64,000 nt of DNA, taken from a virus (lineage: Duplodnaviria; Heunggongvirae; Uroviricota; Caudoviricetes). The notes under the pieces are model-generated. The model was not told the origin of the DNA. It searched no databases and was given only the letters and a program-made list of their open reading frames with translations. Made by a program: the position numbers and the translations under genes. Positions within the stretch are counted from its first letter, which is position 1; the number at the start of each line of letters is the position of its first letter. Of this stretch, positions 11,595 to 50,221 are shown piece by piece. Location: the IMG/VR virus record IMGVR_UViG_3300005399_000003; one strand, written 5' to 3'.

Positions 11595-11662
11595 GTCACA
11601 TGCGACACTTGCCCGTCCACAAGGGCGGGCGTATCAATTAGTCAGCAATGAATGAGAGACAC

Positions 11663-12704: not shown

Positions 12705-12773
12705 GAAAGTCAAAGATGACTTATTGGAGCTTAGAAAACATGCTATCATGTAACTCTAATCAAAGGAGCGCGC

Positions 12774-13916: not shown

Positions 13917-14185
13917 TCATCTGCACCAGCAAAGAAAGCCGCGAGAGACTGCGCGCCGAGAAGCGCGACGAGGCTCTGATGGACAGGCGCAAGAAGATGA
14001 TCGTAAAGGCACAGTCGCGCAAGGTCTTCTTGTGGCTGCCGCGTCGTCTCTACAACGGCGACATTGTTTGGCTGCGCAAAGTATGGCGCCGGGGCCTGCT
14101 GACAGGGTGCGGCAAAATCAGCTTCTACTACGGCATTCGGTACGACGATCTGCCAGGGCGCGAAGAGCCTCTCCCCTCACCATAA
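13913..14185 (+). CDS. hypothetical protein
   Basis: ATGA overlap; the product is basic. Confidence 0.45.
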   Translation: MIICTSKESRERLRAEKRDEALMDRRKKMIVKAQSRKVFLWLPRRLYNGDIVWLRKVWRRGLLTGCGKISFYYGIRYDDLPGREEPLPSP

Positions 14186-14208
14186 GACGAGAAAGAACAG
14201 GAAAACAC

Positions 14209-14709
14209 ATGCTAAAGACACCACCAAAACGAGCAGGGCGCGACCCGATCTTGAACGTGCTGACAAGCCTCAGTCACGGCAAGACCTATGATGGGCTGGA
14301 TGAAGGCTACGCAAGCCTTTCGCACTGGAATCCTGAGTTTGAATACTCCTTCGACAAGTCGTTTGAGCCAATCGACTTCATGAAGCCTGAATACGCTGTC
14401 GAGGGCCGTACATGCGAATGGACGGGCGAGCAGATGTTCCTCAGTGACTACGGGGTGATCGACACCATCGAGCAGTTCGACGAGATGTTCGGCGAAGCGC
14501 TGCGGAATGACGAGCGCACTTTCTTTGTGACATTCGTGGAGATTGCCCGCAAAGATCAACCCGCAAGCGGCGGGTGGCGCTACCACAAGTGGGGTCCATA
14601 CTTCGGCACACAGAACCCGAAGCATGAGTACATCTACCACGATACGCATATCGACCGGGTGTTCACCTTCAGCATTCATCTGATCGAAGCAGAGCAGGTG
14701 ACGGCATGA
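14209..14709 (+). CDS. hypothetical protein
   Basis: ATG 14209 after GAAAGAACAGGAAAAC. Overlaps the RtcB start. Confidence 0.5.
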   Translation: MLKTPPKRAGRDPILNVLTSLSHGKTYDGLDEGYASLSHWNPEFEYSFDKSFEPIDFMKPEYAVEGRTCEWTGEQMFLSDYGVIDTIEQFDEMFGEALRNDERTFFVTFVEIARKDQPASGGWRYHKWGPYFGTQNPKHEYIYHDTHIDRVFTFSIHLIEAEQVTA

Positions 14710-16058
14710 GCGAGATTGAATCCCTCTACAGCGGCAACGACCTCATTCGCTGGGGTCTGAAGCCTGGGGCTTGGTTCAAGGACGCGATCGTCAAGGCGAA
14801 TGCGCTTTGGGATGCGGGCTACTCGGAAGACGAAATCAAGGTGCTCGTCTCGAAAGACGAGCCCACCTTCCTCGAAATGCGAAAGCCCGAGAATGGCTCG
14901 GCGTTCAGTGTCTTCCTTGAGCCTGAGAACGACATTGAGCAGGCTAATCGGGATCAGGTCGTAGAGGCCATGCGCGAAATCATGCGCGTGCCTGTCGTCA
15001 CGGGCGGCGCGGTGATGCCTGACGCTTGCCCTGCCGGCACGATCCCGGTGGGCGGCGTCGTCGAGTCGAGTGCCATTCACCCGAGCTATCACAGCGCCGA
15101 TGTGTGCTGCTCGATGGCGATGACGGTGATTAAGGAAGACGTCGATCAGATGGAGCTGCTGGACAAGATCCAGGAGCTGACCCACTTCGGCCCAACCAAG
15201 CGGGAGACGCGCCCTGTCGAGTTACCGGAAGGGTTCACTGACGGGTGGGGCGATAACATCTTCCTGACGGGTCTCGAAGACGTGGCGCGCAATCACTTCA
15301 CCACGCAGGGTGATGGCAATCACTTCTACTTCGTGGGGCGCTCGGAGGTGACAGGCGATGTGTGCATGGTCTCGCATCACGGCAGCCGCGGCTTCGGGGC
15401 GCAGGTCTACAAGCGCGGTAAGCAGGCTGCCGAAAAGCACACGCGCAACGTGGCGCCAAAAGTGCCTAAGCAACATGCCTGGATTTCGCCCGATGATCAC
15501 GGGCATCTGTATTGGGAAGCGCTGCGCGTTGTGCGTGAATGGACGAAGCTCAACCACTTCATGCTGCATGACGAAATCCTGCGGCAGATGAATGCGACAG
15601 CCGATTGTCAAACGTGGAACCCGCATAACTTCGTCTTTGAGCGGAACGGCATGTTCTATCATGCCAAGGGGGCGACGCCCTCCTTCTTTACTGGCTTCGA
15701 CGACGATGACGGCATGACCTTAATCCCCATGAACATGGCAGAGCCCATTCTGGTCACGTTCCATGAAGACAACCCGCATGCTCTCGGCTTCGCGCCACAT
15801 GGGGCAGGGCGGAACATGAGCCGCACAGCTTTCCTCAAAGAGCATGCGCCCGAGGCTCCTGCTGACATTGACGTGCGGTTCTGGTGCGGGATCGAGGACA
15901 AGAGTGAGCTGCCGCAAGCCTATAAGTCTGCGGCGCAGGTCACGAAAGCGATCAGCGAACACGAGCTAGCCCACATCGTTGACCGCATCATTCCTTATGG
16001 CTCGATCATGGCGGGCGATTGGGAGAGCGAAGCCCCGTGGCGCAAGAAGCGCAAGTAA
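14706..16058 (+). CDS. rtcB: RtcB-family 3'-phosphate/5'-hydroxyl RNA ligase
   Basis: MPDACPAG, GDGNHFYF, HHGSRGFG and PHGAGRNMSRT match RtcB metal- and GTP-binding motifs. Confidence 0.8.
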   Translation: MSEIESLYSGNDLIRWGLKPGAWFKDAIVKANALWDAGYSEDEIKVLVSKDEPTFLEMRKPENGSAFSVFLEPENDIEQANRDQVVEAMREIMRVPVVTGGAVMPDACPAGTIPVGGVVESSAIHPSYHSADVCCSMAMTVIKEDVDQMELLDKIQELTHFGPTKRETRPVELPEGFTDGWGDNIFLTGLEDVARNHFTTQGDGNHFYFVGRSEVTGDVCMVSHHGSRGFGAQVYKRGKQAAEKHTRNVAPKVPKQHAWISPDDHGHLYWEALRVVREWTKLNHFMLHDEILRQMNATADCQTWNPHNFVFERNGMFYHAKGATPSFFTGFDDDDGMTLIPMNMAEPILVTFHEDNPHALGFAPHGAGRNMSRTAFLKEHAPEAPADIDVRFWCGIEDKSELPQAYKSAAQVTKAISEHELAHIVDRIIPYGSIMAGDWESEAPWRKKRK

Positions 16059-32803: not shown

Positions 32804-32854
32804 TGGGTAAATCCCTTTCAAGTGTTGCGGGCTGTTTCGCCCGTATCTCTTTCT

Positions 32855-33000
32855 AAGTCATCTTTGACTTGATTCGCAATATCCCTTTCCCATTAAATCG
32901 CCCCCTTTTCCCCTTTCCCCATATAAAGGGATTAAATCGCCCCCTTTTCATAAAAGCGCATTTTAGGGGTTGCGAATCAAGTCACCCCTGACTTATACAT
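32855..33000. promoter_or_regulatory. composite regulatory region: two AGTCA-N4-TGACT elements embedded in a 15-bp inverted repeat flanking 2x direct repeat ATTAAATCGCCCCCTTTTC
   Basis: The TTGACTTGATTCGCAA...TTGCGAATCAAGTCA arms enclose the direct repeats. Confidence 0.5.
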
Positions 33001-36167: not shown

Positions 36168-36479
36168 TCACCAACTGCCAAATTCAGGGCCGGAACTCTC
36201 GATGTCGATCAGGCGCTGGATCTCCGTCCACTCTGCGATCTGAAAGCGCTCCCAGGCAGATCGGGTCAGATAGACAGGCTGCGGGTTGATGAAATCAGGG
36301 GCGGCGATCAGAAACCCGCGGCTGTGCAGGGTGGCGCCGGCGTCGATGTCTGTGACATTGCGCACCATGAAGCCATCGGACTGCATGTAGACGGCATAGT
36401 CCTTCAGCTCGGGCATGGTCATGCTGTCAACAATGCGACGCAGGAGCCCGCCGGGGGTTCTGTCGACCTTTTCTACCAT
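36168..36479 (-). CDS. hypothetical protein with C-terminal EFGSW tail
   Basis: ATGGTAG overlap with the upstream gene. Confidence 0.5.
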   Translation of the reverse strand: MVEKVDRTPGGLLRRIVDSMTMPELKDYAVYMQSDGFMVRNVTDIDAGATLHSRGFLIAAPDFINPQPVYLTRSAWERFQIAEWTEIQRLIDIESSGPEFGSW

Positions 36480-37240
36480 TCACCGAAGGCCTCTTGCTGT
36501 TCAGCGCTGTCGAGGGTGAAGTCCTCTAGCTGCGAGACAAGCCTCTCTTCAGGAGAGGGTGGCAGCTCAGCTTTCTTCACCGGGATTTCAGTGCCGTCGC
36601 TGAGAACATAGACCAGCTGTCCGTCGGCTTTCCATAACAACTCGCCATCGGTCTCTTTGATGCTGATCTTTTGCTCAACCTGTTTGCTGGTATTGTGCCA
36701 TGCTTGAAGCACGTCAGATTCGATCTTAGCCGCGGAAATGGAGCCGCTTGCGATGGTTGAGCCTTCCAGCGCTATCGCCTTGCCCCACTCTGCCTCCATT
36801 TCCTTCATCTTATCTCTCGTAAGGATGCCGCCGGAGGCCTTGGGTGCGAAAGTGCCCATCCCGAGATGCGCGTCGAGCGCCTCTCTGGTAATGTCCCTCT
36901 TTGCCTTCATAAGATCAGCCTTGAGGAGGGTGTGATCCTTCCGCTCTTGCTCGACCATGGCGGTCTTTTCGCCTATGCTCGCTTTGTGGAATGCATCCTC
37001 CAGCTTCTTCGCGGCGGCGGTGAAGTCCTCGAAGCTCTTTGCTGCATCCCCAATCGACGATCCGGGCAGCTTTGTCCATTTCATTTCTGGAAACGTGGTC
37101 TTCACGGGCTCTTTTGGCTTGAGTGCTTCAGGCATATCCTTTGAGGCAGGCTTATCCGTCGAGAAGGGTTTGTCCAAACCACCCGGGCGACCTAGCAGTG
37201 CGCCGATGCCGTGTTTGATCTTTTGATTGACATAGCTCAT
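36473..37240 (-). CDS. hypothetical protein with C-terminal AFGEW tail
   Basis: 255-aa lysine/glutamate-rich protein. Confidence 0.5.
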   Translation of the reverse strand: MSYVNQKIKHGIGALLGRPGGLDKPFSTDKPASKDMPEALKPKEPVKTTFPEMKWTKLPGSSIGDAAKSFEDFTAAAKKLEDAFHKASIGEKTAMVEQERKDHTLLKADLMKAKRDITREALDAHLGMGTFAPKASGGILTRDKMKEMEAEWGKAIALEGSTIASGSISAAKIESDVLQAWHNTSKQVEQKISIKETDGELLWKADGQLVYVLSDGTEIPVKKAELPPSPEERLVSQLEDFTLDSAEQQEAFGEW

Positions 37241-37263
37241 GTTTTCCCTCGTATCCTTTCTTC

Positions 37264-37512
37264 ATGTCCGACCTCACCCTGCTAAAAATAGCCCAGATGA
37301 ACCCGTCTATGGTTCCCTTACATCTTATCGCCCGAGCGTATCTCCTCGGGGACGCCAAGGTGCGTGCCGCGATGATTGACAGAGCTTTGCAGGCGCAGGG
37401 TCACACCGAGATGCAGCGCCAGGCCATTCGATCGGTGTTGATGATAAGCAAAAGGGCCTCCTTGGAGGCCCTCGATGCGGCCGGAGCCTTCGACGCTTTG
37501 ACGTGCCACTAA
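37264..37512 (+). CDS. possible small + strand gene nested between minus-strand genes
   Basis: Protein-like ORF but no clear RBS; uncertain. Confidence 0.25.
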   Translation: MSDLTLLKIAQMNPSMVPLHLIARAYLLGDAKVRAAMIDRALQAQGHTEMQRQAIRSVLMISKRASLEALDAAGAFDALTCH

Positions 37513-38124
37513 TCAGGCGATGATATAGGGCCGCGTGATCCGCCGTTCGGGGAAGAGGGCGTTGTAGCGCATCACGAAGTTGGCGTAAGCGTAAGGGGGC
37601 AGCTGGGGGTTGATGATCACTTGGTCATCAGGGATGCACAGATGGGGCTCTGGCGGCGCGTAGTTCTCTTTGAGGTCGCGCACTTCGGTGTTGAGCATGA
37701 TGGCGTCGAGTTCTTTGATTTCGGCGCAATCCCACATGTCAGGGTCGATTTCGTGATCTTCAAAGATCATCCGGGTGACGTTGGTCTCATGCCCCTTGAT
37801 GGAGGGACACTTGCGTTTCAGGGGCGTGACAATCTCGCCGATCCAAGCTTCGCCTGCATCATGCAGTAGGGCTGCGCGGGCAAGGTCGATATTGCTACCC
37901 TCATGCAAATCCTCGGCCCAATACGACATGATGGTCGAATGCTGTGCGACGGAGTAATACCCGTTGGTATAGCCGTTAAAACGGCTCTGGTTCGCCAATG
38001 AGATGGCGACAGTTGACATGTCGATCATGTCTCGCTGAGGGTTTGTGAAGTCAATCTTGGCTCCACCCAGTGTCCAAAGTTCCGTGTCTTTGGTTTCCAT
38101 CATTGTCGTGACTGGCAATGTCAT
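37513..38124 (-). CDS. HD-domain 5'-deoxynucleotidase (YfbR-like)
   Basis: YSVAQHS, LLHDAGEAWIGEIVTP matches YfbR VSEHS, YHDASEVLTGDLPTP. Confidence 0.7.
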   Translation of the reverse strand: MTLPVTTMMETKDTELWTLGGAKIDFTNPQRDMIDMSTVAISLANQSRFNGYTNGYYSVAQHSTIMSYWAEDLHEGSNIDLARAALLHDAGEAWIGEIVTPLKRKCPSIKGHETNVTRMIFEDHEIDPDMWDCAEIKELDAIMLNTEVRDLKENYAPPEPHLCIPDDQVIINPQLPPYAYANFVMRYNALFPERRITRPYIIA

Positions 38125-38738
38125 GCTCCCGTTCTCAATCGCGTATCTCTAGCGCCGTTAATCCAATCTGTGAGGGGTGATTGAAGAATCGCTCTCCGAA
38201 GGCCTTCCAAAGAAGTCCCTGGATTATGAATGGTGAAGTCCACCAGGCTACGATCGTAGCTGTCGAACTCCCACTCACTAGCTTCCTTTAGCCCGCTCAA
38301 TACCTCTACGACGACACCACCAGCTCTTTTGTAAGCCGCGCCCTGCTGTCTTCGTACACTTCCAAAGCTGTAACCGTTGGGTGACTTATTGTCACCCCAA
38401 AACTGTCCCGAGGGTGTCACATTTTGTCGCAAGACGGAACGAATAGCGATTTCAGGAATTGCTTCATCCCCCAAAAGCGCTTCCACAAGATTGCCATATT
38501 CCCCAAGCAGCTGTCGAACTTGCCATTTCTTGCCGAAAACCGTGACGAAACGTAGCTTTCCTTCTTGAGAATATACGTCTTCAGGGGTCAGGCCCGCAAG
38601 GTCCATGACGTGACGCCGGATGATGTCGCCATCGTCCACTGGCTCGATTCCGAATAGTTCGGTAAGTAAGCGCTGAGTTGTTGTTTTCCCTGAGCCTGGA
38701 GCGCCGCAGAGTGCGATCAAAGTCGATGTTCTCGACAT
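38121..38738 (-). CDS. deoxynucleoside monophosphate kinase (T4 gp1-like P-loop kinase)
   Basis: GAPGSGKTT P-loop. KWQVRQLLGEYGNLVEALLGDEAIPEIAI parallels T4 gp1 QWSVRRLMQALGTDLIVNNFDRMYW. Confidence 0.55.
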   Translation of the reverse strand: MSRTSTLIALCGAPGSGKTTTQRLLTELFGIEPVDDGDIIRRHVMDLAGLTPEDVYSQEGKLRFVTVFGKKWQVRQLLGEYGNLVEALLGDEAIPEIAIRSVLRQNVTPSGQFWGDNKSPNGYSFGSVRRQQGAAYKRAGGVVVEVLSGLKEASEWEFDSYDRSLVDFTIHNPGTSLEGLRRAILQSPLTDWINGARDTRLRTGA

Positions 38739-38795
38739 GTTCTTTCCTTGGTTGGAATCAGTGTTAGCTGACTATAGCAGCAAGCCGCCGCGCTG

Positions 38796-40286
38796 TTAAG
38801 CGGCGAGCTTGAAGCCAAGACCAAGGGCGTCGAACTCCTGACCCTTCTTGAGGATGTTTTCAGCGAAGCCCGGGGTTGCCTCGACAATGGCCCTGCGAGC
38901 GCGGGCGTGCTTCTTGAGGTACTTGTTGCCGATGTCGCTGTAGTCCACGACGAAGCAGATGTTCGGAAGCCCACCTTTCTTTTCTCGCAGACCGCGCCCG
39001 ATGCGCTGGCGCAATGCGACCTCAGCTTTCCCGCCCCCGGCAAGAATCACCATCCCTACGGCCGGCACGTCCACACCCACATCGAGAATGGTCGAGCCGA
39101 TCAGCACTGCGGTCTCGCCAGACTTTAGGCGATTGAGGGCGCGCTGACGCTGGTCATTATCATGGGCGCCGTGAATGAACTCTGTGGCAAATCCTAATTT
39201 GCGGCAGTTGTCTCGTAGCGTAACTCCATGTGCCTTACGCTGCACCAAGATCATCACCGGCAGTCCGAGCTTTCGGGCGAACTCGACGCGAGACACAATA
39301 TCGGCATTGCGCATGTCGTTCTTCACCACACCGATGTCATACGCTTTCTGCCAGCTGTAGAACTGCTTGAGGTCTTTGGGCGGCGGGACATCGCGATACT
39401 GGAAGATCGGACGTGCAAGGATGTTGCGCTCGATCAGCATCTTCTCGGGGATGCTAATGCCGATCTGACCCGAGACACCCATGAGCCGCATATTGGCCTC
39501 TGCATCCGCGCGCATGAACGGGGTCGCGGTCAGGGCAAGCCTGTATCGCGCGTTCACCATCTCATTCATCACCTTGAAGTACGTCTCCGACCCCGCCTCA
39601 TGCGCCTCCTCAAGAATGCAAAACTCGAACATATGCAGCAGCTTGGTGGTGGCGCCCATGGTTTCGGGGTTCGACAGCCGCGCATCGAGGGTTTGGATCA
39701 TACCGACGTTCACCCCGCGGGTTGGACGCCATTCGCCGTCACCCATAACGCCCACCTTGAAGCCGGCTTGCTCAAAGCCGTCCTTCATCTGGTACATCAG
39801 CACCTGACGTGTCGTGATAAACAGGGTAGGGCGCATGATGCGTTTCACCGCGGTGCGTGCGATCATCGACTTGCCGCCACCGGTAGCGACCTGGGCGATC
39901 ATAGCGCCGTACTTCTCAAGCCTGCGTACCGTCTCGGGCTGATAGTCATACCGAGGGTCGATGTCGAAGGGGTTCACAGCCGCGTAAGCCTCATCCAGGG
40001 GCGGGCCTAACGGGGCGGGTAGGGGCTTTCTGCGTACCGTGACCTGATAACCCTCCTGACGCAGCTTATCGACCGCAGAGGCCAGAAAGCCCGCAGGGAA
40101 GATGCCTGTCGAAAACTCCAGAAAGCTTGTGCGCCCATCCCAGCCTTGGTTCTTACCCCGGCCTGTATGCTCGGCTCCGTCCACATAGTAGCTGAGCTGA
40201 TCCGAGACGATTAGCTTCGCCTCGATGTCGGCTTCCATCATGCGGGCCTTCACCGCATTCGCAACTATGAGAACATGCTCAGACAT
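38796..40286 (-). CDS. superfamily-2 DEAD/DEAH-box DNA helicase
   Basis: ATGGGKS (motif I), ILEEAHE (motif II), LTATP (motif III), QRIGRGLR (motif VI). Confidence 0.8.
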   Translation of the reverse strand: MSEHVLIVANAVKARMMEADIEAKLIVSDQLSYYVDGAEHTGRGKNQGWDGRTSFLEFSTGIFPAGFLASAVDKLRQEGYQVTVRRKPLPAPLGPPLDEAYAAVNPFDIDPRYDYQPETVRRLEKYGAMIAQVATGGGKSMIARTAVKRIMRPTLFITTRQVLMYQMKDGFEQAGFKVGVMGDGEWRPTRGVNVGMIQTLDARLSNPETMGATTKLLHMFEFCILEEAHEAGSETYFKVMNEMVNARYRLALTATPFMRADAEANMRLMGVSGQIGISIPEKMLIERNILARPIFQYRDVPPPKDLKQFYSWQKAYDIGVVKNDMRNADIVSRVEFARKLGLPVMILVQRKAHGVTLRDNCRKLGFATEFIHGAHDNDQRQRALNRLKSGETAVLIGSTILDVGVDVPAVGMVILAGGGKAEVALRQRIGRGLREKKGGLPNICFVVDYSDIGNKYLKKHARARRAIVEATPGFAENILKKGQEFDALGLGFKLAA

Positions 40287-40373
40287 GACATTACCTTGCT
40301 ACAAAGGGGTTTATCTTATACATTATAACTCAGAAATGACTTACCTTATACCCCTCCTTCAGGCAAGGACAGC

Positions 40374-41030
40374 ATGAACCTCATCCATACAGATCCCCGC
40401 ACATTAAGCCCAAATCCCTGGAACCCGAACCATGTCTCCCCGGAAGGTATGGAGCGTCTCACCGAAAGTCTTCGGCGCCACGGCTGGGTAAAGCCCGCGC
40501 TTGTGCGTGAGACAGACACGGGCCTTGAAATCCTCGGCGGTCAACATCGCATCGAAGCCTCGATCGTCCTGGGCAATGAGACAGTCCCGGTTCTCAATCT
40601 CGGTCGCTTGAGTGACGAGCGCGCCAAGGAGATCGGTCTGATCGACAACGCCCGTTACGGTAGCGATGACGCGGATGAACTGGCGGCCATCATCAAAGAC
40701 CTTGGCGGCAGCGAGATCATCTCGGAGTTTCTACCCTTCTCTGATGCCGAACTGGCCTCCCTCGCGACCGACATTGATGTGGATGACATCGACGACATGA
40801 TCGACGGCACCCACGACAGCACCGGTGAGCCGGAAGAGAAGCCCGAGCGGCCGCCCAAGACCCACACCATCATGCGCTTCAAGATCTCCATTCAAGACGA
40901 AGACCTGGTGCGGGAGCTGATCGAGGAGATCAAACGAGATCAGGAGTTCGTCGAGGAAGACGATCTCACCAATGCCGGGGATGCCCTGGTCTATCTTGCT
41001 CAACAAATGAAGGAAGCCGAACATGGCTAA
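40374..41030 (+). CDS. ParB/Srx-like nuclease-domain protein
   Basis: LEILGGQHR ParB N-domain motif and an acidic C-terminus. Confidence 0.7.
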   Translation: MNLIHTDPRTLSPNPWNPNHVSPEGMERLTESLRRHGWVKPALVRETDTGLEILGGQHRIEASIVLGNETVPVLNLGRLSDERAKEIGLIDNARYGSDDADELAAIIKDLGGSEIISEFLPFSDAELASLATDIDVDDIDDMIDGTHDSTGEPEEKPERPPKTHTIMRFKISIQDEDLVRELIEEIKRDQEFVEEDDLTNAGDALVYLAQQMKEAEHG

Positions 41031-41703
41031 AGAGATCGACATCAACGACCTCTCCATTGAGGCAGTCGACATCGACTACCCCAAACCAGCGGAGAACAAC
41101 AACAAGGTTCACACGCCCGCATCTGTCGCGCGTCAGGCTAAGTCCCTCGCGGCCCTCGGGCAGATCACCCCGATCATCCTGGCTGAAGACGGCGAGATCA
41201 TCGCCGGACACGGTCGGGTCATGGCTGCCAAAGAGCTTGGCTGGAAGAAGATCAAGGCCATCACGCTGCCTGTTGACGCCGAGACGGCGCGCAAGATGCG
41301 CATTGCTGACAACCTCGCATCGAACCAAAACTACGACATCGACGCACTGACCAACGAGCTGAAGGACTTGAACCTTCGCGACGAGCTGGAAAACTTCATC
41401 GGCGACGATCGGATGATCGACAATCTGGAAACCGCGCTCGACACGCTGGCGGAGATGGATCGCGACAGCTTCGTCAAAGACCTCGATGAAGCCGTGGATG
41501 TCTACGCCTCGGAATCCGACGGCTTGATGGATGAAATCGACCAGAAGGATGTGATGCTCAAGACTGTCTTTGAGTTCAATGGCCTCAAACCCAAGGAGGC
41601 GCGGCGGGTCAATCTGTTCATGGCGCTGATCAAGGGCAAGAGCGGCGCGGAGGCAAAAGAAGCCTTCCTTGAGCATGTGGAGAAGACCATTGCCGAAGGA
41701 TGA
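41023..41703 (+). CDS. ParB/Srx-like nuclease-domain protein (second copy)
   Basis: IIAGHGRVMAAKELGW motif. Confidence 0.7.
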   Translation: MAKEIDINDLSIEAVDIDYPKPAENNNKVHTPASVARQAKSLAALGQITPIILAEDGEIIAGHGRVMAAKELGWKKIKAITLPVDAETARKMRIADNLASNQNYDIDALTNELKDLNLRDELENFIGDDRMIDNLETALDTLAEMDRDSFVKDLDEAVDVYASESDGLMDEIDQKDVMLKTVFEFNGLKPKEARRVNLFMALIKGKSGAEAKEAFLEHVEKTIAEG

Positions 41704-42938: not shown

Positions 42939-43802
42939 ATGCCTGAAGACTTTGCCACCGAGATCGTCTGCGACCCGCAGGCCAAACCTGCATTCCCGCT
43001 GTTGTCGGAGATGTACGTCGAGCGCGGCACGCAGGAAGATTGGAACCTGCTGCACCATCTGCACTACAAGTCCGACCACAACCCTATCGGCGCGCGCTAC
43101 TATCGCCTTGTGTTGGACGGTGAGACAATCGGCGTCTGCGGGATCACCCAGCCCCGGCCCTTGGGCAAGGAGCGTCATCAGATTTGGAAGAAGCTCACGC
43201 CGGGGAATGACACCAAGGCCTCGAACCGCTTTCGGTACAAGTGGGTCAACAAGAACATCGTGGTGATCGGCCGCATTGTGCTGGACACGATGTACCGCGG
43301 CGTGGGCGCCTCGTATCGCTTTCAGAACATTGTTGCCCGCAAGTCTGGCATGCCGATTGTCGAGATCATGTCCTCGATGTCGAAGTACAATCCCTTCGCG
43401 CAGAAGGCGGGGTTTGAGTTCGTGCGCCCCATGCGGTCGAACAAGTTCGATGTCGGCATGAAGTTCTTCCGGGCCAACTTCGATGCGCACCCCGCCGATC
43501 TCGATGGACTGCTCAAAGAGATCGACGCAATGCCTGAGGCCGCCCGGGGCTTGATGGTCGATCGTATCAAGACGTTCTACTACCGCCACTCCGCCAACGA
43601 GAAGACGGGTGACGCCCGCGACATCGGGCAGGAGCGGGTGCGTAACATGAGCACGAGCCTTGTCTTGCGTCAGTTGCAGCAGCTGGTGCTCTCAACGCCG
43701 CTTTACGGGGTCTACATGAACCCGGACTTCGGGCGCGATCTTCCCGATCAAATCCCACTCACCGCTTTTGATGCTCAACCGACGACGGAGCCGCTGAAAT
43801 GA
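42939..43802 (+). CDS. GNAT-like acetyltransferase-fold protein with C-terminal extension
   Basis: AAGGGAG RBS. GRIVLDTMYRGVGASYRF is motif-A-like. Confidence 0.45.
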   Translation: MPEDFATEIVCDPQAKPAFPLLSEMYVERGTQEDWNLLHHLHYKSDHNPIGARYYRLVLDGETIGVCGITQPRPLGKERHQIWKKLTPGNDTKASNRFRYKWVNKNIVVIGRIVLDTMYRGVGASYRFQNIVARKSGMPIVEIMSSMSKYNPFAQKAGFEFVRPMRSNKFDVGMKFFRANFDAHPADLDGLLKEIDAMPEAARGLMVDRIKTFYYRHSANEKTGDARDIGQERVRNMSTSLVLRQLQQLVLSTPLYGVYMNPDFGRDLPDQIPLTAFDAQPTTEPLK

Positions 43803-44119
43803 TGACCTATGAGAAAGACCCATATCGTCTGACCAAGAAGCAGATGCATGTGCTTTCTGTAATCGCCCGAGGCGGGGATGATGGTGACTTCCTCGACCTC
43901 GATCAGCTCTTGGAGAAGATCAACTATGAGACGACCAAAGCCTCGATGCACTTCACGCTCCGAGGCCTGCTGCGTCGGGGTATGATCGAGAAGAAGGGCC
44001 AGGAGCTGCGCCGAGGGCGTCAGCGCTTGGTGTTGGCCCCGACAGTGAAAGGGCAGGGCATGGTGCGCACCGACAGCTCCGGTGGCGGGGTTGTGATGGA
44101 GGGATTCGACGAGGTCTAG
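43799..44119 (+). CDS. winged-helix DNA-binding protein
   Basis: LTKKQMHVLSVIARGG...MHFTLRGLLRRGMIEK has an ArsR/MarR-like wHTH pattern. Confidence 0.45.
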   Translation: MMTYEKDPYRLTKKQMHVLSVIARGGDDGDFLDLDQLLEKINYETTKASMHFTLRGLLRRGMIEKKGQELRRGRQRLVLAPTVKGQGMVRTDSSGGGVVMEGFDEV

Positions 44120-44490
44120 GCCCGAGGATGCCTGTCAACCGAAAAGCGAAGGACAGGGGTGCGACATATTGTCACCACATCGCTAAGAATCATTCCCCCT
44201 GTCCCTCTACTCGCTTCACTCGTAGAGTGTACTAGTAAGTAAATATAAGTCAATTAGTATTTAGCGGATGTGGTGACACTATGTCGCACCCAAAGGACTT
44301 GACATAAAATCAGCCACTTAGGCGATTCTGGCTCCTCGGGAAGATAAGTAAGCGCTGACTTGTATGTTATCGCCTAATCGCTTATACTTAGGACACCACC
44401 CGGTATCCGGTTTTCCCTGTTCACGGTCCTCGGGTGTCTCTCGTCAGGCCCGCTCTTTCGGGAGCGGGCCACCCTAATTCAGCAGGAACC
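44120..44490. promoter_or_regulatory. AT-rich non-coding region with 24-bp inverted repeats; candidate pac/cos or late-control region
   Basis: GGTGCGACATATTGTCACCACATC at 44156 pairs with GATGTGGTGACACTATGTCGCACC at 44267. Further inverted repeats and a GGCCCGCTC-TTTCGG-GAGCGGGCC hairpin at 44446-44472. Confidence 0.5.
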
Positions 44491-44492
44491 TC

Positions 44493-45107
44493 ATGGCAGG
44501 CGAGAAATCTGAACCCCACCATCGGAAGATGACGCCCTTGGATTACGCCAAGGCGCGGCGCTTGTATGAAATGGGCACGGCGACCCTCGCGGAGCTTGCC
44601 GAGCAGTTCGGGGTTCACCCCTCGTCGCTGCACGAACGCTTCAAGCGCGACGGTGTGGTCAAGGGCTCTCGGGTGTCCGAGGCGCTTGAGAAGATGGACG
44701 AGGTCATCGCCAACGACGCTGAACAGCTGATGAAGCGCGTCACGGACACCAAAGAACAACACTACCGCTACGCCGAGGCGCTCTCGAAGATGACCATGCA
44801 GGCCATTATTGACACGCGCCAGAAGGGCAAACCCATCGCCGCCGCGGATGGTGATCTCGCTGCGCTCAACAAGGCCGCCAAGACGCTCGAAGTGCTGCGC
44901 AAGGAGCGCTACAAGCTTTTGGGCCTCGATGACGATGGCGGCGATCCCAACGAGAATGAAGAAATCCTGATCTCCGAAATGACGGATGAGCAGATCGACG
45001 AACTGCGCCAAGCCGCCAACCCGAATGTCGATAACTCCGAGGGCATCGAGACCCTCTTGGAGGACATCGACATCGTTGATGAGGGGCTGGAGGGCCTTGA
45101 GCAGTGA
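44493..45107 (+). CDS. terminase small subunit (putative)
   Basis: HTH LAELAEQFGVHPSSLHERFKR, immediately upstream of TerL. Confidence 0.55.
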   Translation: MAGEKSEPHHRKMTPLDYAKARRLYEMGTATLAELAEQFGVHPSSLHERFKRDGVVKGSRVSEALEKMDEVIANDAEQLMKRVTDTKEQHYRYAEALSKMTMQAIIDTRQKGKPIAAADGDLAALNKAAKTLEVLRKERYKLLGLDDDGGDPNENEEILISEMTDEQIDELRQAANPNVDNSEGIETLLEDIDIVDEGLEGLEQ

Positions 45108-46384
45108 AGCCGCCCGTCAACATGATGCGCGGGCCGAAGGGCGGCAAGCCGCGATGGCTGTACCTGCACCCCGCGCAGATGAAGGTGTTCAAGCACCCGA
45201 CGCGCTTTAAGGTCGTCGTCGCAGGCCGTCGATGGGGTAAGACCCAGCTGTCAAAAGTCTGGATGATCCACAAGGCAGCCTCGAAGCGCAAGGCGTTGAT
45301 CTGGTACATCGCGCCGACCTATCAGATGGCGCGTCAGATTATGTGGGACGACCTCAAAGAGGCGATCCCGCGAAAGATGCTCAAGGTGCCGCCCAACGAG
45401 ACCTTGATGATGCTCCGCTTCAAGAACGGGTCGATCATCCAGCTCAAGGGTGCCGACAAGCCCGACACGCTGCGCGGTGTGGGCCTTGATGGCGTGGTTC
45501 TCGACGAATTTCAGGACATGCGCGAGGAGACCTGGGATACGGTCATTCAGCCCACACTTGCCTCGACAGGCGGTGAGGCGCTGTTTATCGGCACGCCGAA
45601 GTCTTACAACCACCTCTATGATCTGTTCATGGACGGTCAGAGCGCCAAGCATGAAGATTGGCAGTCCTGGCAGTTCCAGACCATCACGTCTCCGTTCATC
45701 CCGCCCGCAGAGATCGAGCGTGCGCGGCGCACGATGAACGAAAAGGAGTTCCGGCAGGAGTTTGAAGCTTCCTTCGAGACGATGTCGAACCGCGTCTACC
45801 ACGCCTTCGACCGCAACGTGCATGTGGGCCGGGTCAAAATGGACCCGCGCTACGACATTATGGTTGGGATGGACTTCAACGTGGACCCGATGTCCGCGAT
45901 CTTCTTTCAGATCCGAGACGGCTCGGTGCGCGTTTTCGGCGAGCGCATTCTCAGCAACTCTTCGACGCAAGAGATGTCCGGGGAGCTTGATCGTCTGTTC
46001 TGGCGCCAGAAGCACCGCGTGATCATCTACCCTGACCCTGCCGGCACGCAGCGATCCTCGGCCGCCTCCAGCGGTGAGAGTGACTTTGCCATGCTCAAGC
46101 AGATGGGTTTCAAGCGTCTCAAGTATCGCCGCAAGCACCCGCGCATCCGTGACCGTATCAACGCGGTCAATCGCATGCTCATGGCAGGTGACGGCACGTC
46201 TCGGGTTCTGATCGACCACACCTGCAAGAGTTTGATCGAGAGCTTTGAGCAGACGCAGTTCAAGCCGGGATCATCCGAAGTCGACAAGCGCCCCGGTATC
46301 GAACACGCGACGGACGCTTTCGGCTATCCCATCGAGATCGAGTTCCCGGTACGCGACATTCATATCCTGGGGGTTTCCTTCTGA
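45104..46384 (+). CDS. terminase large subunit
   Basis: Walker A VVVAGRRWGKT, Walker B VVLDEF, and a C-terminal nuclease region. Confidence 0.8.
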   Translation: MKPPVNMMRGPKGGKPRWLYLHPAQMKVFKHPTRFKVVVAGRRWGKTQLSKVWMIHKAASKRKALIWYIAPTYQMARQIMWDDLKEAIPRKMLKVPPNETLMMLRFKNGSIIQLKGADKPDTLRGVGLDGVVLDEFQDMREETWDTVIQPTLASTGGEALFIGTPKSYNHLYDLFMDGQSAKHEDWQSWQFQTITSPFIPPAEIERARRTMNEKEFRQEFEASFETMSNRVYHAFDRNVHVGRVKMDPRYDIMVGMDFNVDPMSAIFFQIRDGSVRVFGERILSNSSTQEMSGELDRLFWRQKHRVIIYPDPAGTQRSSAASSGESDFAMLKQMGFKRLKYRRKHPRIRDRINAVNRMLMAGDGTSRVLIDHTCKSLIESFEQTQFKPGSSEVDKRPGIEHATDAFGYPIEIEFPVRDIHILGVSF

Positions 46385-46437
46385 GCTTTGAAATCAGTCA
46401 GCACTGAGTTACAATGCCCAGGCCAAAGAGGTTCATC

Positions 46438-48096
46438 ATGCCAAAAGACACGTCCACAGATACAGTCGACCCCTCCTTCTTCGAGCGGCGCCACCCCGAT
46501 TACTCGGGGAAGTTGGCGCATTGGAACTTCCTGGAGGCAACCTACTACGGTGGGCGGGATTGGTTCAAAAAGAACGTCCACAAGTATTTCCGCGAAGGGT
46601 CGGGGGAGTACAGCGATCGGATCGAGCGGGCTTATCGCTTCAACCATACGCGCGAGATCGTCGATCTGGTGACGAAGTATGTCTACAAGGGCGACATCAT
46701 TCGGAAGTCTGATGCGCCCAAGTTCATTGATGACTTCTGGAAGAAGACGACCAAAGGCGGCCGGGACATCGACGCTTTCATGCGGCAGGTCTCGCAGATG
46801 ACCTCTGTTTTCGGTCAGCCCTATATCGTCATGGACAGCACCATCACGCTCAAAGAGGGCGAGAAGCTGAGCCAAGCAGAGGTCGAACGCCGGGGCGGTC
46901 GGGTCTATGCCTATCTGGTCAAACCCCAAGATGCGCTCGACATGTCCTTTGATGCACATGGCGAGCTGAACTGGATCATCTTTAGCGAAGTCAGCCGCCA
47001 GGACACGGACTTCTTTTCCGCGCAAAAGACCGTCACCCGCTATCGTCTCTGGACCCGCAAGAGCTGGTATCTGTTTGAGATTGAGCAGGGTGAAGCGAAG
47101 ACAGATGGCAAGCCCGCGATCAAGGTCGTCACGCCCGATGTAACGCCCATGGTCACCCCCTCGGGCGCGGCCAATGTCAACAAGAACACGAGCAAGCTCA
47201 AGGTTGTGTTGAAGGGCAGGGGTGATCACAATCTCGGAGAAGTGCCTGTCATCGTTCCGCGTGAGCGTCATTCGGACACGAGCTATTCGGCCCCGGGCTT
47301 GATCGACGATACCGCCTATCTCGACCGCGCTGTCGCGAACTATCTGTCGAACCTCGATGCAATCATTCAGGATCAGACCTTCTCGACACTGGTGATCCCG
47401 TCGCAGGCGCTGAACTCTGCGGATTCCGGTGAGAGCGTCAAGAAGAAGGTGATCGAGCTGGGCACCAATCGCGTCGTCACCTACGACGCCGAGGCAGGCA
47501 TTGCGCCGCAGTATATCTCACCTGACCCCGGTCAGGTCGCAATCATTCTCGGGGTGATCACCAAGATCATCACCGAAATCTATCACTCTGTCGGCATGGC
47601 CGGCGAGCGCACGAAGAGCGACAATGCCGCGGGCATCGACAACAGCTCGGGCGTGGCGAAGGCATATGACTTCGACCGCATGAACACCATGCTCAAGTCC
47701 AAAGCTGACACGCTGCAAACTGTCGAGAACGACATGGTGCGGCTTGCGCATCTGTGGTTCGGACAGAAGCCCCCGGAAGACCGTGACTTCGTGCGCTACC
47801 CTGATGATTTTGACACGCGCAATCTCTACGACGAGTTTGACGTTGCCAATCGACTGGCTCTGCTCGATGCGCCCGACGGCGTGCGACAGCACCAGATGAT
47901 GACCTTGATCGAGAAGCTCTTCCCGAACCTGACCGACGAGCTGAAATCGGAAATCGAGAAGCAGATCGAGGACTGGCCGCCAGAAGAGGCGGTATCGATC
48001 CGAGCGCCCTCAAGGCTACAGGATCGAAACGTACCCCAAGAAGAGAACAGGCAAGGCCAGGCTGGCGGCGCCGACAACCCCAAGGACGAAGGATGA
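46438..48096 (+). CDS. portal protein
   Basis: Size and position after TerL. AAGAGG RBS. Confidence 0.6.
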   Translation: MPKDTSTDTVDPSFFERRHPDYSGKLAHWNFLEATYYGGRDWFKKNVHKYFREGSGEYSDRIERAYRFNHTREIVDLVTKYVYKGDIIRKSDAPKFIDDFWKKTTKGGRDIDAFMRQVSQMTSVFGQPYIVMDSTITLKEGEKLSQAEVERRGGRVYAYLVKPQDALDMSFDAHGELNWIIFSEVSRQDTDFFSAQKTVTRYRLWTRKSWYLFEIEQGEAKTDGKPAIKVVTPDVTPMVTPSGAANVNKNTSKLKVVLKGRGDHNLGEVPVIVPRERHSDTSYSAPGLIDDTAYLDRAVANYLSNLDAIIQDQTFSTLVIPSQALNSADSGESVKKKVIELGTNRVVTYDAEAGIAPQYISPDPGQVAIILGVITKIITEIYHSVGMAGERTKSDNAAGIDNSSGVAKAYDFDRMNTMLKSKADTLQTVENDMVRLAHLWFGQKPPEDRDFVRYPDDFDTRNLYDEFDVANRLALLDAPDGVRQHQMMTLIEKLFPNLTDELKSEIEKQIEDWPPEEAVSIRAPSRLQDRNVPQEENRQGQAGGADNPKDEG

Positions 48097-50143: not shown

Positions 50144-50221
50144 TCGTGCCAATAAGTCACGAATGACTTACAATAGGGCAGGCTCTTCGGGGCCTGCCCT
50201 TTTTCACATAGAGGAACAGAT

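What the first reader, a model, noticed from the sequence alone, without database searches (positions are those of the whole stretch)
44120..44490. 370-bp AT-rich non-coding region with 24-bp inverted repeats and a perfect 9-bp-stem hairpin just before TerS
GGTGCGACATATTGTCACCACATC at 44156 pairs with GATGTGGTGACACTATGTCGCACC at 44267 (one mismatch), about 90 bp apart. Additional inverted repeats are GAAGGACAGGGG/CCCCTGTCCCTC and CTTAGGCGATT/ATCGCCTAA. A hairpin GGCCCGCTC-TTTCGG-GAGCGGGCC lies at 44446-44472. This is the largest ORF-free region in the window. It sits exactly where pac/cos sites or late-operon control regions lie in many phages.
Basis: seen in the sequence. Interest (0 to 1): 0.6.

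Follow-up and report, generated by a model that had tools for sequence, protein, structure and literature searches.

The report
Control region of phage terminase operon
The 373-bp gap before the phage's DNA-packaging genes is a conserved gene-control region (two promoters, protein-binding palindromes and a structured RNA leader); it is mostly ordinary, apart from a large DNA palindrome whose central promoter has flipped direction during evolution, and nothing here shows it to be a DNA-packaging cut site.

Summary
The 25-nt inverted repeat (44157-81 / 44267-91, one mismatch) far exceeds chance. The 9-bp hairpin (44447-70) exists, and GC falls to 0.44.

The window belongs to a ~112-kb siphovirus distantly related to SSU5, Nickievirus and RHEph10. 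Fifteen marine relatives have the same 300-395-bp gap between a small winged-helix gene and the TerS-like gene.

Comparison resolves three parts:
1. **A rightward sigma70-type promoter.** -35 TTGTAT 44360-65, -10 TATACT 44383-88, kept in all 15 genomes. Its -35 overlaps a 16-bp palindrome, AAGTCA-N4-TGACTT, which occurs 31 times in the window, mostly just upstream of genes.
2. **A ~98-nt leader.** The GC hairpin shows compensatory changes and plus-strand G·U pairs, so it is an RNA structure. It is a terminator in about 9 of 16 genomes compared, but lacks the U-tract here.
3. **The large palindrome (44134-44304).** Its symmetry is at the DNA level. It encloses a second, leftward promoter. This central cassette is inverted in some relatives, with at least two events, but not within species-level groups.

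The late-operon-control reading is supported. The pac/cos reading is untested. I rate it a new variant of a known kind, of moderate interest.

The parts
43799..44119 (+). 106-aa gene directly upstream of the gap. Predicted winged-helix (MarR/PadR-like) DNA-binding protein and candidate regulator of the region.
   Evidence: Kept in this position in all relatives, including nickie, RHEph10 and PhiR41_1. The AlphaFold2 model (pLDDT 77) has a helix-strand-helix-helix-wing layout. All top Foldseek PDB hits are MarR/PadR regulators, TM 0.55-0.6, but E-values are 0.017 or worse. Pfam hits (MarR_2, HTH_27, PadR) are below threshold. It matches phrog_900, function unknown.
44134..44304 (.). Large imperfect DNA palindrome. 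Outer boxes are TGTCAA (44134-39) and TTGACA (44299-304); arms are 44157-86 and 44261-91; the asymmetric centre is about 74 nt.
   Evidence: Most of the 14 marine relatives examined, plus RHEph10 and PhiR41_1, have a palindrome in the equivalent place; in L043, L141, L143 and L145 the arms are weak or not detected. Arms reach 55 nt (L136), 53 nt (L135), 48 nt (L146), 41 nt (L044). RHEph10 has an 81-bp palindrome and PhiR41_1 a 100-bp one. Arm sequences differ between lineages but stay complementary within each genome. Mismatches are 10 G:T, 7 A:C and 40 other, the random ratio, so the symmetry is in DNA rather than an RNA stem. It is 97.1% identical to L132, against 91-95% for the genes.
44157..44186 (.). 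Left arm of the palindrome (25-nt core 44157-44181).
44261..44291 (.). Right arm of the palindrome (25-nt core 44267-44291).
44226..44253 (-). Central sigma70-like promoter Pc, facing left. -35 TTGACT is the reverse complement of 44248-53, the spacer is 16 nt, and -10 TACACT is the reverse complement of 44226-31. Predicted start is about 44219.
   Evidence: It is the only consensus promoter hit in 43500-45000. The hexamers and 16-17-nt spacing are kept while the spacer varies, in 10 genomes on the minus strand and 3 on the plus strand. The predicted transcript start, GYGWAGCGAGNAGRG followed by a purine-rich run, is conserved. The transcription start itself is not mapped.
44215..44231 (.). 17-bp palindrome TTCACTC-GTA-GAGTGTA over the -10 and start of Pc. 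The consensus in relatives is TACGCTC-N3-GAGCGTA. Candidate operator.
   Evidence: Read from alignment A5 and the centre sequences. The window carries a matched change on both halves, CACTC/GAGTG where relatives have CGCTC/GAGCG. Only one half would be transcribed from Pc, so it is a DNA site. The function is inferred.
44148..44207 (-). 12-bp stem (44148-59 with 44196-207) enclosing the left arm. On the minus-strand RNA it is followed by GCUUUUCGG, so it could end a Pc transcript of about 80 nt.
   Evidence: Changes in L133 (G-C to G·U) and a different but still pairing stem in L150 fit the minus strand slightly better. L150 has no U-run. Support is weak.
44346..44361 (.). 16-bp palindrome AAGTAA-GCGC-TGACTT, one copy of a genome-wide motif AAGTCA-N4-TGACTT. 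Its centre lies at about -41.5 from the predicted start of the late promoter.
   Evidence: It is the most conserved block of the gap in all 14 aligned sequences (window plus 13 relatives). There are 31 copies with at most 2 mismatches in the window, against 1.6 expected; none of 100 shuffles reached that. About 24 of the 31 lie 16-64 nt upstream of a start codon with a ribosome-binding site. In 20 of the 152 fetched loci, all from the marine relatives, the exact motif occurs once, at this gap; L143 and L144 carry a second copy.
44360..44388 (+). Rightward sigma70-type promoter of the TerS-TerL-portal operon. -35 is TTGTAT (44360-65), the spacer is 17 nt, -10 is TATACT (44383-88). Predicted start is about 44395.
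   Evidence: TTG-N20-TAnnnT is kept with identical spacing in all 15 genomes compared (window plus 14 marine relatives). It is 95.9% identical to L132. The simple scan missed it because the -35 matches only 4 of 6 positions. The start is not mapped.
44395..44492 (+). Leader RNA of about 98 nt, with a stem-loop close to its 5' end (within 44397-44437), a pyrimidine block TCTCTCGTCA, the GC hairpin, and the ribosome-binding site AGGAA (44484-88).
   Evidence: The RNA fold gives -38.5 kcal/mol, z = -2.9. Every relative has a stem-loop starting within a few nt of the predicted start. It is 98.0% identical to L132.
44447..44470 (+). GC hairpin of the leader: GGCCCGCTC / GAGCGGGCC, loop TTTCGG, plus a closing U·G pair. 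It is terminator-like in most relatives but has no U-tract here.
   Evidence: Stems of 9-15 bp with different sequences occur in all 14 marine relatives and in nickie. RNAalifold finds 9 pairs, 7 with compensatory changes. Allowing plus-strand G·U adds 32 pairs over 16 sequences, against 3 for the minus-strand equivalent. A T-run follows in 9 of the 16 genomes compared (8 marine relatives and nickie; a tenth, L141, has a broken run). In the window, L132, L150, L043, L136 and L145 the hairpin is followed by ACCCY instead.
44305..44345 (.). Unconstrained spacer between the palindrome and the promoter block.
   Evidence: Only 73% identical to L132; 11 of the 21 differences in the gap fall here.
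44493..45107 (+). 204-aa TerS-like gene, first gene of the operon, followed by TerL (45104-46384) and the portal gene (46414-48096).
   Evidence: The protein is 100% identical in L132-134 despite 42 DNA differences, all synonymous.

Best explanation
The gap is the transcriptional control region and 5' leader of the terminase/structural (late) operon. The phage is a ~112-kb siphovirus, probably of marine Rhodobacterales, distantly related to SSU5, Nickievirus and RHEph10.

**Shown by comparison**
- **Late promoter.** A rightward sigma70-type promoter (-35 TTGTAT, 17 nt, -10 TATACT) sits about 105 nt before the TerS start codon.
- **Palindrome at the -35.** The weak -35 is overlapped by a 16-bp palindrome centred near -41.5. 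This is one copy of a motif found about 30 times in the window, mostly in front of genes.
- **Leader RNA.** The transcript starts with a 5' stem-loop and carries a GC hairpin selected as plus-strand RNA.
- **Upstream palindrome.** A 171-bp DNA-level palindrome lies further upstream. Its centre holds a second sigma70-like promoter facing away from TerS, and that promoter has its own 17-bp palindrome over the -10 and start.

**Inferred**
- A dimeric phage regulator binds the 16-bp palindrome and switches the late promoter. The gene next door, which encodes a winged-helix protein, is the first candidate. Given the geometry and the weak -35, class-II-type activation is the most likely mode here. 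Repression is possible where relatives have a consensus -35.
- In the ancestor and in most relatives the hairpin is an intrinsic terminator. Late expression there depends on read-through or antitermination. In this genome the U-tract is lost, so the hairpin more likely acts as a pause or mRNA-stability element.
- The palindrome arms are paired protein-binding or structural DNA sites. They control the central promoter and shield the late operon from read-through out of the upstream operon.
For: - **Synteny.** The order ParB-like, ABC-like ATPase, 290-aa gene, winged-helix gene, gap, TerS-like gene, TerL, portal is kept from E. coli SSU5-like phages to marine relatives.
- **Promoter.** It is kept in all 15 genomes with fixed spacing.
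- **Motif.** It is 20-fold over-represented and associated with gene starts.
- **Hairpin.** It shows covariation and a strand-specific G·U signature. A terminator-like T-run follows it in most relatives, including nickie.
- **5' stem-loop.** One occurs at every predicted start.
- **Constraint.** The palindrome, promoter and leader are 96-98% identical to L132, against 91-95% for the genes and 73% for the spacer.
- **Central promoter.** The hexamers are conserved while the spacer varies.
- **Arms.** The mismatch spectrum is random, so the symmetry is at the DNA level.
- **Winged-helix fold.**
Against: - No transcription start, RNA or protein-DNA contact has been observed; every promoter is a prediction.
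- Canonical E. coli-type promoters are not enriched in this genome (7 found, 6.8 expected).
- Most other motif copies have only a weak -10 at the matching distance. The motif's role as a promoter element or as an operator is therefore unresolved.
- The hairpin lacks a U-tract in this genome, and the scan finds no terminator there.
- The regulator assignment rests on adjacency and fold only. Two ParB-like proteins encoded upstream are equally possible binders.
- The function of the large palindrome is not explained by any test made here.
Confidence: 0.65

Rival explanations
1. Packaging signal. The large palindrome, or the whole gap, is the site where the small terminase subunit assembles and the DNA is cut (pac, cos or a terminal-repeat boundary). 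The inverted arms are terminase-binding sites around an AT-rich bendable centre, as with R3-I1-R2 of lambda cosB or pacL/pacR of SPP1. This could coexist with the promoter function.
For: - The gap lies directly upstream of the TerS-like gene.
- The TerS-like protein has an N-terminal helix-turn-helix-like region; one homologue carries HTH_7 and HTH_psq Pfam hits.
- A palindrome at this position is found across the supergroup without sequence conservation.
- The symmetry is at the DNA level.
- Several metagenomic contigs begin inside the gap.
Against: - The contig start points are scattered, not at one position.
- Contigs of 106-114 kb from relatives do not end here.
- TerL is of the T4/P22 type; the lambda gpA hit is below threshold.
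- The Nickievirus Nican01 is reported as 'DTR (long)'.
- The conserved hexamers in the centre fit a promoter.
- Arm sequences change completely between relatives whose TerS DNA-binding regions are similar.
Confidence: 0.15
2. Invertible promoter cassette (flip-flop). The arms recombine and turn the central promoter either away from TerS or towards it, which would give a heritable on/off or early/late switch for the late operon.
For: - Inverted repeats of 25-55 nt flank a 72-85-nt segment that carries a promoter.
- The segment is inverted in L141 and L147, and probably in L142, relative to the other genomes. For L044 against L147 the inverted alignment scores 65.5 (shuffles 16.5 ± 3.1), while the same-orientation score is 24. 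For L141 against L045 the values are 50.5 and 20.5. None of 500 shuffles reached the inverted scores.
- The TerS tree places unflipped L044 inside the flipped clade, which implies at least 2 events.
- The arms stay alike within a genome while diverging between genomes.
Against: - There is no orientation polymorphism within any species-level group: the window with L132-134 and L150-152, the L044 group and the L138 group all keep one orientation.
- Orientation is stable across lineages whose TerS is only about 42-64% identical to the window's.
- tblastn with Hin, Gin, FimB and XerD finds no recombinase in the 64-kb window. The test is limited, and about 48 kb of the genome is unseen.
- SSU5-like and RHEph10 palindromes have centres of only 13-17 nt, with no room for a promoter.
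Confidence: 0.08
3. RNA processing or termination hairpin. Read-through RNA from the upstream operon folds the two arms into a 25-55-bp double-stranded stem, which RNase III cleaves or which stops transcription, separating early/middle from late messages.
For: - A perfect stem of two helical turns or more is possible on a plus-strand read-through RNA.
- No terminator lies between the stop of the upstream gene and the left arm.
Against: - Non-Watson-Crick positions in the arms show no G·U enrichment on either strand: 10, 7 and 40, the random ratio. The leader hairpin shows 32 against 3.
- No U-tract follows the right arm.
- There is no Rfam match.
Confidence: 0.05
4. Replication origin. An AT-rich unwinding centre, activated by its own promoter and flanked by structural repeats, would work like the promoter-plus-unwinding-element origins of T4 and T7.
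For: - AT-rich centre.
- A promoter lies inside it.
- A function that does not depend on orientation would tolerate the inversions seen.
Against: - Cumulative GC skew has no turning point at 44 kb; the change is near 36-37 kb, where gene direction switches.
- There are no iterons.
- The replication genes lie elsewhere, and a different repeat-rich gap at 32.8-33.0 kb is a better origin candidate.
Confidence: 0.04

Closest known systems
Lambdoid late control (PR' promoter, qut site, tR' terminator, Q antiterminator)
   Same: A promoter is followed within about 50-70 nt by a GC hairpin that is an intrinsic terminator in most relatives. It lies ahead of the whole late operon, and a DNA site overlaps the promoter.
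   Different: No Q-like protein was identified. The hairpin has no U-tract in this genome. The overlapping site is a dispersed 16-bp palindrome, not a qut element. Nothing has been tested experimentally. The description of the lambda system is from general knowledge.
phi29 early/late switch region (small dimeric protein p4 binding inverted repeats between divergent early and late promoters)
   Same: A short intergenic region holds divergent promoters. The late promoter has a weak -35. Inverted-repeat sites occur, and a protein of about 100-125 aa is the presumed regulator.
   Different: The leftward promoter here has no leftward genes to express. The regulator fold is winged-helix, not p4-like. 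The arms are much longer. The description of the phi29 system is from general knowledge.
Class II (CRP/FNR-type) activator-dependent promoters
   Same: A palindromic dimer site is centred near -41.5 and overlaps a weak -35, with a good -10 (coordinates).
   Different: The half-sites AAGTCA/TGACTT are not CRP or FNR boxes. The start is only predicted. Several relatives have a consensus -35, where such a site would more likely repress.
Dispersed phage operators and start-associated motifs: Cluster A mycobacteriophage stoperators (PMC9283540, PMC6550527) and Cluster K SAS/ESAS (PMC3203893)
   Same: Tens of copies of one short motif occur across the genome, mostly in short gaps next to gene starts. 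A second conserved ribosome-binding-site motif, GAAAGGGAAAG, also occurs.
   Different: The motif is a symmetric 6-4-6 palindrome, whereas stoperators are asymmetric. The host and phage lineage are unrelated. The binding protein is unknown.
lambda cosB (R3-I1-R2-R1) and SPP1 pacL/pacR terminase assembly sites
   Same: Position directly upstream of or at the start of the small terminase gene, with inverted or repeated sites around a bendable AT-rich stretch. In SPP1 the site also overlaps the promoter of the terminase gene.
   Different: No termini data exist. TerL is not lambda-like. The arms are not conserved in sequence between relatives. The descriptions of both systems are from general knowledge.
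Invertons (fimS, hin and Bacteroides promoter switches)
   Same: Inverted repeats flank a short segment containing a promoter, and both orientations exist among related genomes.
   Different: No recombinase was found and there is no within-population polymorphism. The arms are long and vary in sequence, rather than forming a conserved recombinase core.

Membership tests
sigma70-type bacterial promoter (late promoter 44360-88) | -35 and -10 hexamers 16-18 nt apart | tested here: met
   TTGTAT-17-TATACT: 4 of 6 and 5 of 6 matches. TTG-N20-TAnnnT is kept in all 15 genomes.
sigma70-type bacterial promoter (late promoter 44360-88) | Transcription starts 6-8 nt after the -10 | not testable with these tools
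   No RNA data. Indirect support: a 5' stem-loop begins at the predicted start in every relative.
Intrinsic (Rho-independent) terminator (hairpin 44447-70) | GC-rich stem-loop in the RNA | tested here: met
   9-10-bp GC stem, with covariation and a plus-strand G·U signature.
Intrinsic (Rho-independent) terminator (hairpin 44447-70) | U-tract directly after the stem | tested here: not met
   The window has ACCCUAAUU and the scan finds no terminator. The feature is met in 9 of the 16 genomes compared, including nickie; a tenth (L141) has a broken T-run.
cos site (lambda/HK97 type) | Defined staggered cut giving cohesive ends at this position | not testable with these tools
   Needs virion DNA ends. 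Contig starts in the gap are scattered.
cos site (lambda/HK97 type) | Lambda gpA-type large terminase | tested here: not met
   GpA_ATPase scores 18.7 bits, below its cut-off of 25.6. Terminase_6N, Terminase_3 and Terminase_6C pass.
pac site (headful packaging) | Read-start peak and decaying coverage series from the site | not testable with these tools
   No reads available. Location near TerS is compatible.
Inverton (site-specific invertible promoter) | Inverted repeats flanking a promoter | tested here: met
Inverton (site-specific invertible promoter) | Both orientations coexist in one population or strain | tested here: not met
   All contigs within each species-level group share one orientation. 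Only consensus assemblies were examined, not reads.
Inverton (site-specific invertible promoter) | Cognate serine or tyrosine recombinase encoded nearby | tested here: inconclusive
   tblastn with Hin, Gin, FimB and XerD gives no hit better than E = 0.046. The ORF under that hit has no Pfam or PHROG family. Only 64 of about 112 kb was seen.
RNase III processing stem | Double-stranded RNA stem of about 20 bp or more, maintained at RNA level | tested here: not met
   The stem length is sufficient, but the mismatch spectrum is random (10 G:T, 7 A:C, 40 other).
Class II activator-dependent promoter | Dimer site centred at about -41.5 with a weak -35 | tested here: inconclusive
   The geometry fits if the start is at 44395 (motif centre 44353.5). 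The start is only predicted, and no activator has been shown.
MarR/PadR-type winged-helix regulator (upstream 106-aa protein) | Winged helix-turn-helix fold | tested here: met
   AlphaFold2 topology H-S-H-H-wing, pLDDT 77. Top 50 Foldseek hits are nearly all MarR, PadR, ArsR and Fur-type regulators.
MarR/PadR-type winged-helix regulator (upstream 106-aa protein) | Sequence membership (Pfam gathering score) | tested here: not met
   The best hit, MarR_2, scores 16.3 bits against a cut-off of 27. It matches 6 of 16 homologues, at E of 3e-4 or worse.
Any described RNA family (Rfam 15) | Covariance-model match | tested here: not met
   No hit at gathering score in the window. Only chance-level hits appear at E up to 5 in 44000-44600.

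The most novel reading that the evidence does not exclude
The large palindrome upstream of the terminase genes may be a distinct, supergroup-wide DNA element, present from SSU5-like phage-plasmids to Nickievirus, RHEph10 and these marine phages. It would work through its symmetry. One possibility is a recombining flip-flop cassette that re-aims a promoter at or away from the late operon. Another is a cruciform or paired-site signal used by the packaging machinery. The arms evolve in concert and the centre has inverted repeatedly. Neither has been described for these phages, as far as the limited literature searches here could tell.
Probability: 0.2. Interest if true: 0.7.

Novelty: new variant of a known kind. 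Interest (0 to 1): 0.42.

Why it matters
Regulation and packaging in the SSU5 / Nickievirus / RHEph10 supergroup, which includes clinically relevant phage-plasmids, are essentially uncharacterised.

This analysis gives concrete, testable coordinates for:
- the late promoter;
- a leader attenuator hairpin conserved across the supergroup;
- a dispersed 16-bp palindrome that probably marks the regulon of a phage regulator;
- a candidate regulator gene.

It also flags a conserved palindrome whose central promoter has inverted at least twice in evolution. If that element proves to be a switch or a packaging signal, it would be a new control principle for a widespread phage group. If not, the region is an ordinary, well-conserved late-operon control region.

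Tried and rejected
- **Known RNAs.** Rfam at gathering score on the whole window, Rfam at E up to 5 on the gap, and a tRNA/tmRNA scan found nothing.
- **DNA similarity to known phages.** Near and distant searches found no match.
- **TerS-based searches.** A single-sequence TerS scan of viral contigs found nothing. Alignment-based scans of metagenome and viral contigs added only a few loci. Most relatives came from the protein database followed by contig look-ups.
- **Contig break points as a proxy for termini.** They are scattered, so this was rejected.
- **Pc RNA pairing with the late leader.** The purine-rich start against the pyrimidine block TCTCTCGTCA gave duplex energies no better than non-cognate pairs or shuffles, so this was rejected.
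- **Arms as an RNA stem.** Rejected on the mismatch spectrum.
- **Arms as a dispersed repeat or mobile element.** There are only two copies in the window.
- **TTGACA at 44299 as the -35 of a further promoter.** No -10 lies at 16-18 nt in the window or in relatives (read).
- **A small ORF on the minus strand after Pc.** It would be 25 aa, has no proper ribosome-binding-site spacing and is not conserved in L043 or L135 (read).
- **The TTAGGCGAT / ATCGCCTAA repeat.** It is not kept in L150.
- **Recombinase search.** Negative.
- **Literature on termini of SSU5-like phages and Nickievirus.** Only a 'DTR (long)' call for Nican01 was found, without positions, and the record starts at TerL by convention.
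- **GC skew as an origin signal.** No signal at 44 kb.
Full report
**1. The observation**

The gap runs from the stop codon of a 106-aa gene (44119) to the ATG of a 204-aa gene (44493), a length of 373 bp.

- The main inverted repeat is 44157-44181 / 44267-44291: 25 nt, one mismatch, 85 nt apart. It extends to 30/31 nt with one gap.
- In 200 dinucleotide shuffles of the gap, the longest repeat with at most one mismatch averaged 10 nt and never exceeded 14.
- The arm sequence occurs nowhere else in the 64 kb.
At 12 nt and 9 nt, the shorter repeats are within chance.
- GC drops to 0.435-0.485, against about 0.57-0.60 nearby.
- 'Largest ORF-free region' holds only at a 40-aa ORF threshold.

**2. 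Context**

- TerL (45104-46384; Terminase_6N, Terminase_3, Terminase_6C) and a portal gene follow the 204-aa gene.
- The best cultured TerL relatives are only 53-55% identical. They are Pseudomonas Nickievirus, Rhizobium RHEph10-like phages, and SSU5-like phage-plasmids of E. coli, Salmonella and Klebsiella. T5-like phages are at about 24%.
- There is no DNA-level match to any deposited phage.
- The gene order ParB-like, ABC-like ATPase, about 290 aa, about 100 aa, gap, TerS-like, TerL, portal is the same in nickie, RHEph10 and PhiR41_1.
- Protein and contig look-ups gave three strains about 92% identical in DNA (L132-134; L132 comes from a 111,833-bp contig). They also gave a relative whose upstream protein is 76-77% identical (L150-152) and 13 more distant marine relatives. 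Two of those were binned with Rhodobacterales MAGs.
- All of them have a 300-395-bp gap at this place.

**3. What is conserved**

Against L132, the conservation is uneven:

| Segment | Identity to L132 |
|---|---|
| Palindrome | 97.1% |
| Promoter block | 95.9% |
| Leader | 98.0% |
| Flanking genes | 91-94.7% |
| Spacer 44305-44345 | 73% |

The gap is therefore made of constrained pieces separated by free spacer.

**4. The late promoter and the dispersed palindrome**

- The strongest block in the 14-sequence alignment is ATAAGTCA-N4-TGACTTG, followed 20 nt later by TAnnnT.
- This reads as -35 TTGTAT (44360-65), a 17-nt spacer and -10 TATACT (44383-88). The spacing is identical in all 15 genomes compared.
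- The block left of it is a 6-4-6 palindrome (44346-61). Its centre is 41.5 nt upstream of the predicted start at 44395.
- The palindrome is not specific to this gap. The window has 31 copies with at most 2 mismatches, against 1.6 expected, and none of 100 shuffles reached that.
- The extended consensus is AAGTCAnnnnTGACTTAC.
- About 24 copies lie 16-64 nt upstream of a start codon with a ribosome-binding site, often just after a terminator-like hairpin.
- Many copies have TTGACT as the right half and a weak nATAAn about 17 nt further on. The motif may therefore double as the -35 region of the phage's promoters, but no sharp -10 emerges.
- The copy before TerS is the outlier. It is 131 nt from the ATG and is followed by a good -10 and a long structured leader.
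- I take it as the binding site of a dimeric factor that ties the late promoter to a genome-wide regulon. The binder is unknown.

**5. The leader and the hairpin**

- Every relative has a small stem-loop starting within a few nt of the predicted start.
- Every relative also has a GC hairpin 14-30 nt before the ribosome-binding site.
- The hairpin stems differ in sequence, for example GGCCCGCTC, GGCCCACCC, GACTCGCCC, GGCTTACCCC and GACCTGCGGTG.
- RNAalifold finds 9 pairs, 7 of them with compensatory changes.
- Allowing G·U on the plus strand adds 32 pairs over 16 sequences. The hairpin is therefore selected as plus-strand RNA.
- A T-run follows the stem in 9 of the 16 genomes compared, including nickie, with a broken run in a tenth (L141). 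PhiR41_1 also has one, though interrupted. There it is an intrinsic terminator sitting between the promoter and TerS.
- In the window, L132, L150, L043, L136 and L145 the tail is ACCCY. The scan finds no terminator there.
- A terminator ahead of the whole late operon points to control by read-through or antitermination in the group. In this genome the element has probably decayed into a pause or stability hairpin. Both statements are inference.

**6. The large palindrome**

- The 25-nt repeat is the core of a 171-bp imperfect palindrome, from TGTCAA at 44134 to TTGACA at 44304.
- Most relatives have one in the same place. Arms reach 55 nt (L136, 89% complementary), 53 nt (L135), 48 nt (L146) and 41 nt (L044), with 72-85 nt between them. 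In L043, L141, L143 and L145 the arms are weak or not detected.
- RHEph10 and PhiR41_1 have 81-bp and 100-bp palindromes with short AT-rich centres.
- Arm sequences are partly shared (GGTGCGACA...) in the window's clade. They are unrelated in L136, L044, L142 and L147. They are always complementary within a genome.
- The 57 non-Watson-Crick positions split 10 G:T, 7 A:C and 40 other, which is the random 2:2:8 ratio. Unlike the leader hairpin, this is a DNA-level symmetry.

**7. The central promoter and its inversion**

- Between the arms lies the only consensus sigma70 hit of the region: TTGACT-16-TACACT on the minus strand.
- The hexamers and spacing are kept while the AT-rich spacer varies. 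The first 15 nt of the predicted transcript (GYGWAGCGAGNAGRG) are conserved.
- A 17-bp palindrome covers its -10 and start. It reads TACGCTC-N3-GAGCGTA in relatives and TTCACTC-GTA-GAGTGTA here, with a matched change on both halves.
- In L141 and L147, and probably L142, the whole centre lies in the opposite orientation while the flanking genes do not.
  - L044 against L147 scores 65.5 inverted, against 24 in the same orientation.
  - L141 against L045 scores 50.5 inverted, against 20.5.
  - No shuffle out of 500 reached the inverted scores.
- In a TerS neighbour-joining tree, unflipped L044 sits inside the flipped clade, which implies at least two events. Tree support was not assessed.
- Within each species-level group all contigs share one orientation.
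- No recombinase was found in the window.
- The inversions are therefore rare evolutionary events, not a demonstrated switch.
- Because the arms are inverted copies, the RNA made from the central promoter would be the same through the arm in either orientation. This may be why inversion is tolerated (inference).

**8. The neighbouring gene**

- The 106-aa protein has no Pfam family at threshold.
- It models as a winged helix (pLDDT 77).
- Its structural neighbours are MarR/PadR regulators.
- Its putative recognition helix is well conserved across the marine relatives.
- It is the obvious regulator candidate, but the two ParB-like proteins upstream are alternatives.

**9. Packaging**

Nothing tested here places genome ends in the gap.

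- Contig starts are scattered.
- Large contigs do not end there.
- TerL is not lambda-like.
- A Nickievirus is reported as 'DTR (long)', without positions.

None of this excludes terminase binding at the palindrome.

**10. Verdict**

The region is a conserved late-operon control region and leader. The function of the palindrome is the open and interesting part.

Noticed in passing
window, 31 sites from 1195 to 62136 (for example 1195, 12707, 24274, 25112, 32855, 32979, 50154, 54336): A genome-wide 16-bp palindrome, AAGTCA-N4-TGACTT(AC), occurs 31 times with at most 2 mismatches, against 1.6 expected. About 24 copies lie 16-64 nt upstream of start codons, often right after terminator-like hairpins. 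It may be a promoter element or the operator of a global regulator.
   Followed up: partly
window 12428-33641 (12 sites, for example 21836, 26324, 29804, 33044): An extended ribosome-binding-site motif, GAAAGGGAAAG, occurs 12 times with at most 1 mismatch, against 1.2 expected. Many copies sit a few nt before the ATG of genes in the 12-34 kb part of the window. Together with the palindrome it recalls the SAS/ESAS motifs of Cluster K mycobacteriophages (PMC3203893).
   Followed up: partly
window 32854-32995: A second inverted repeat has a centre of about 90 nt. The arms are 26 nt, 85% complementary, and each carries one copy of the 16-bp palindrome. The centre has two exact copies of ATTAAATCGCCCCCTTTTC. 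This is another control region or possibly an origin.
   Followed up: no
L043:1602-3932 and L045:2282-4906 (relatives): The TerL genes of two relatives encode 776 and 874 aa instead of 426. They carry insertions with LAGLIDADG homing-endonuclease and intein-splicing domains, apparently at different positions. The window's TerL has no intein.
   Followed up: partly
window 44493-45107 against L132:3001-3615: The TerS-like protein is 100% identical in strains whose DNA is about 92% identical. All 42 nucleotide differences in the gene are synonymous, which indicates very strong purifying selection.
   Followed up: partly
window 50154-50205: One copy of the 16-bp palindrome is followed 6 nt later by a canonical terminator hairpin (GGGCAGGC-N8-GCCTGCCC plus TTTTTC). 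It lies directly before the ribosome-binding site of the gene at 50222 and after a 300-aa gene whose homologue in nickie is annotated as the major capsid protein. The layout matches the TerS leader in relatives.
   Followed up: no
window 1179-16058 and 36473-41703: The gene content is that of a large, mostly lytic-style phage: an SbcC/SMC-like ATPase, a class II ribonucleotide reductase, an RtcB RNA ligase, a DEAD/ResIII helicase, an HD phosphohydrolase and two tandem ParB-N-domain proteins. No tRNA genes occur in the 64 kb.
   Followed up: partly
L001:3007-3046 (nickie) and L003:3257-3296 (PhiR41_1): The gaps before TerS in a Pseudomonas Nickievirus and an E. coli SSU5-like phage share a short motif, ACAAGTTGTT, in repeated or inverted copies. 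It may be their counterpart of the marine clade's 16-bp palindrome.
   Followed up: no
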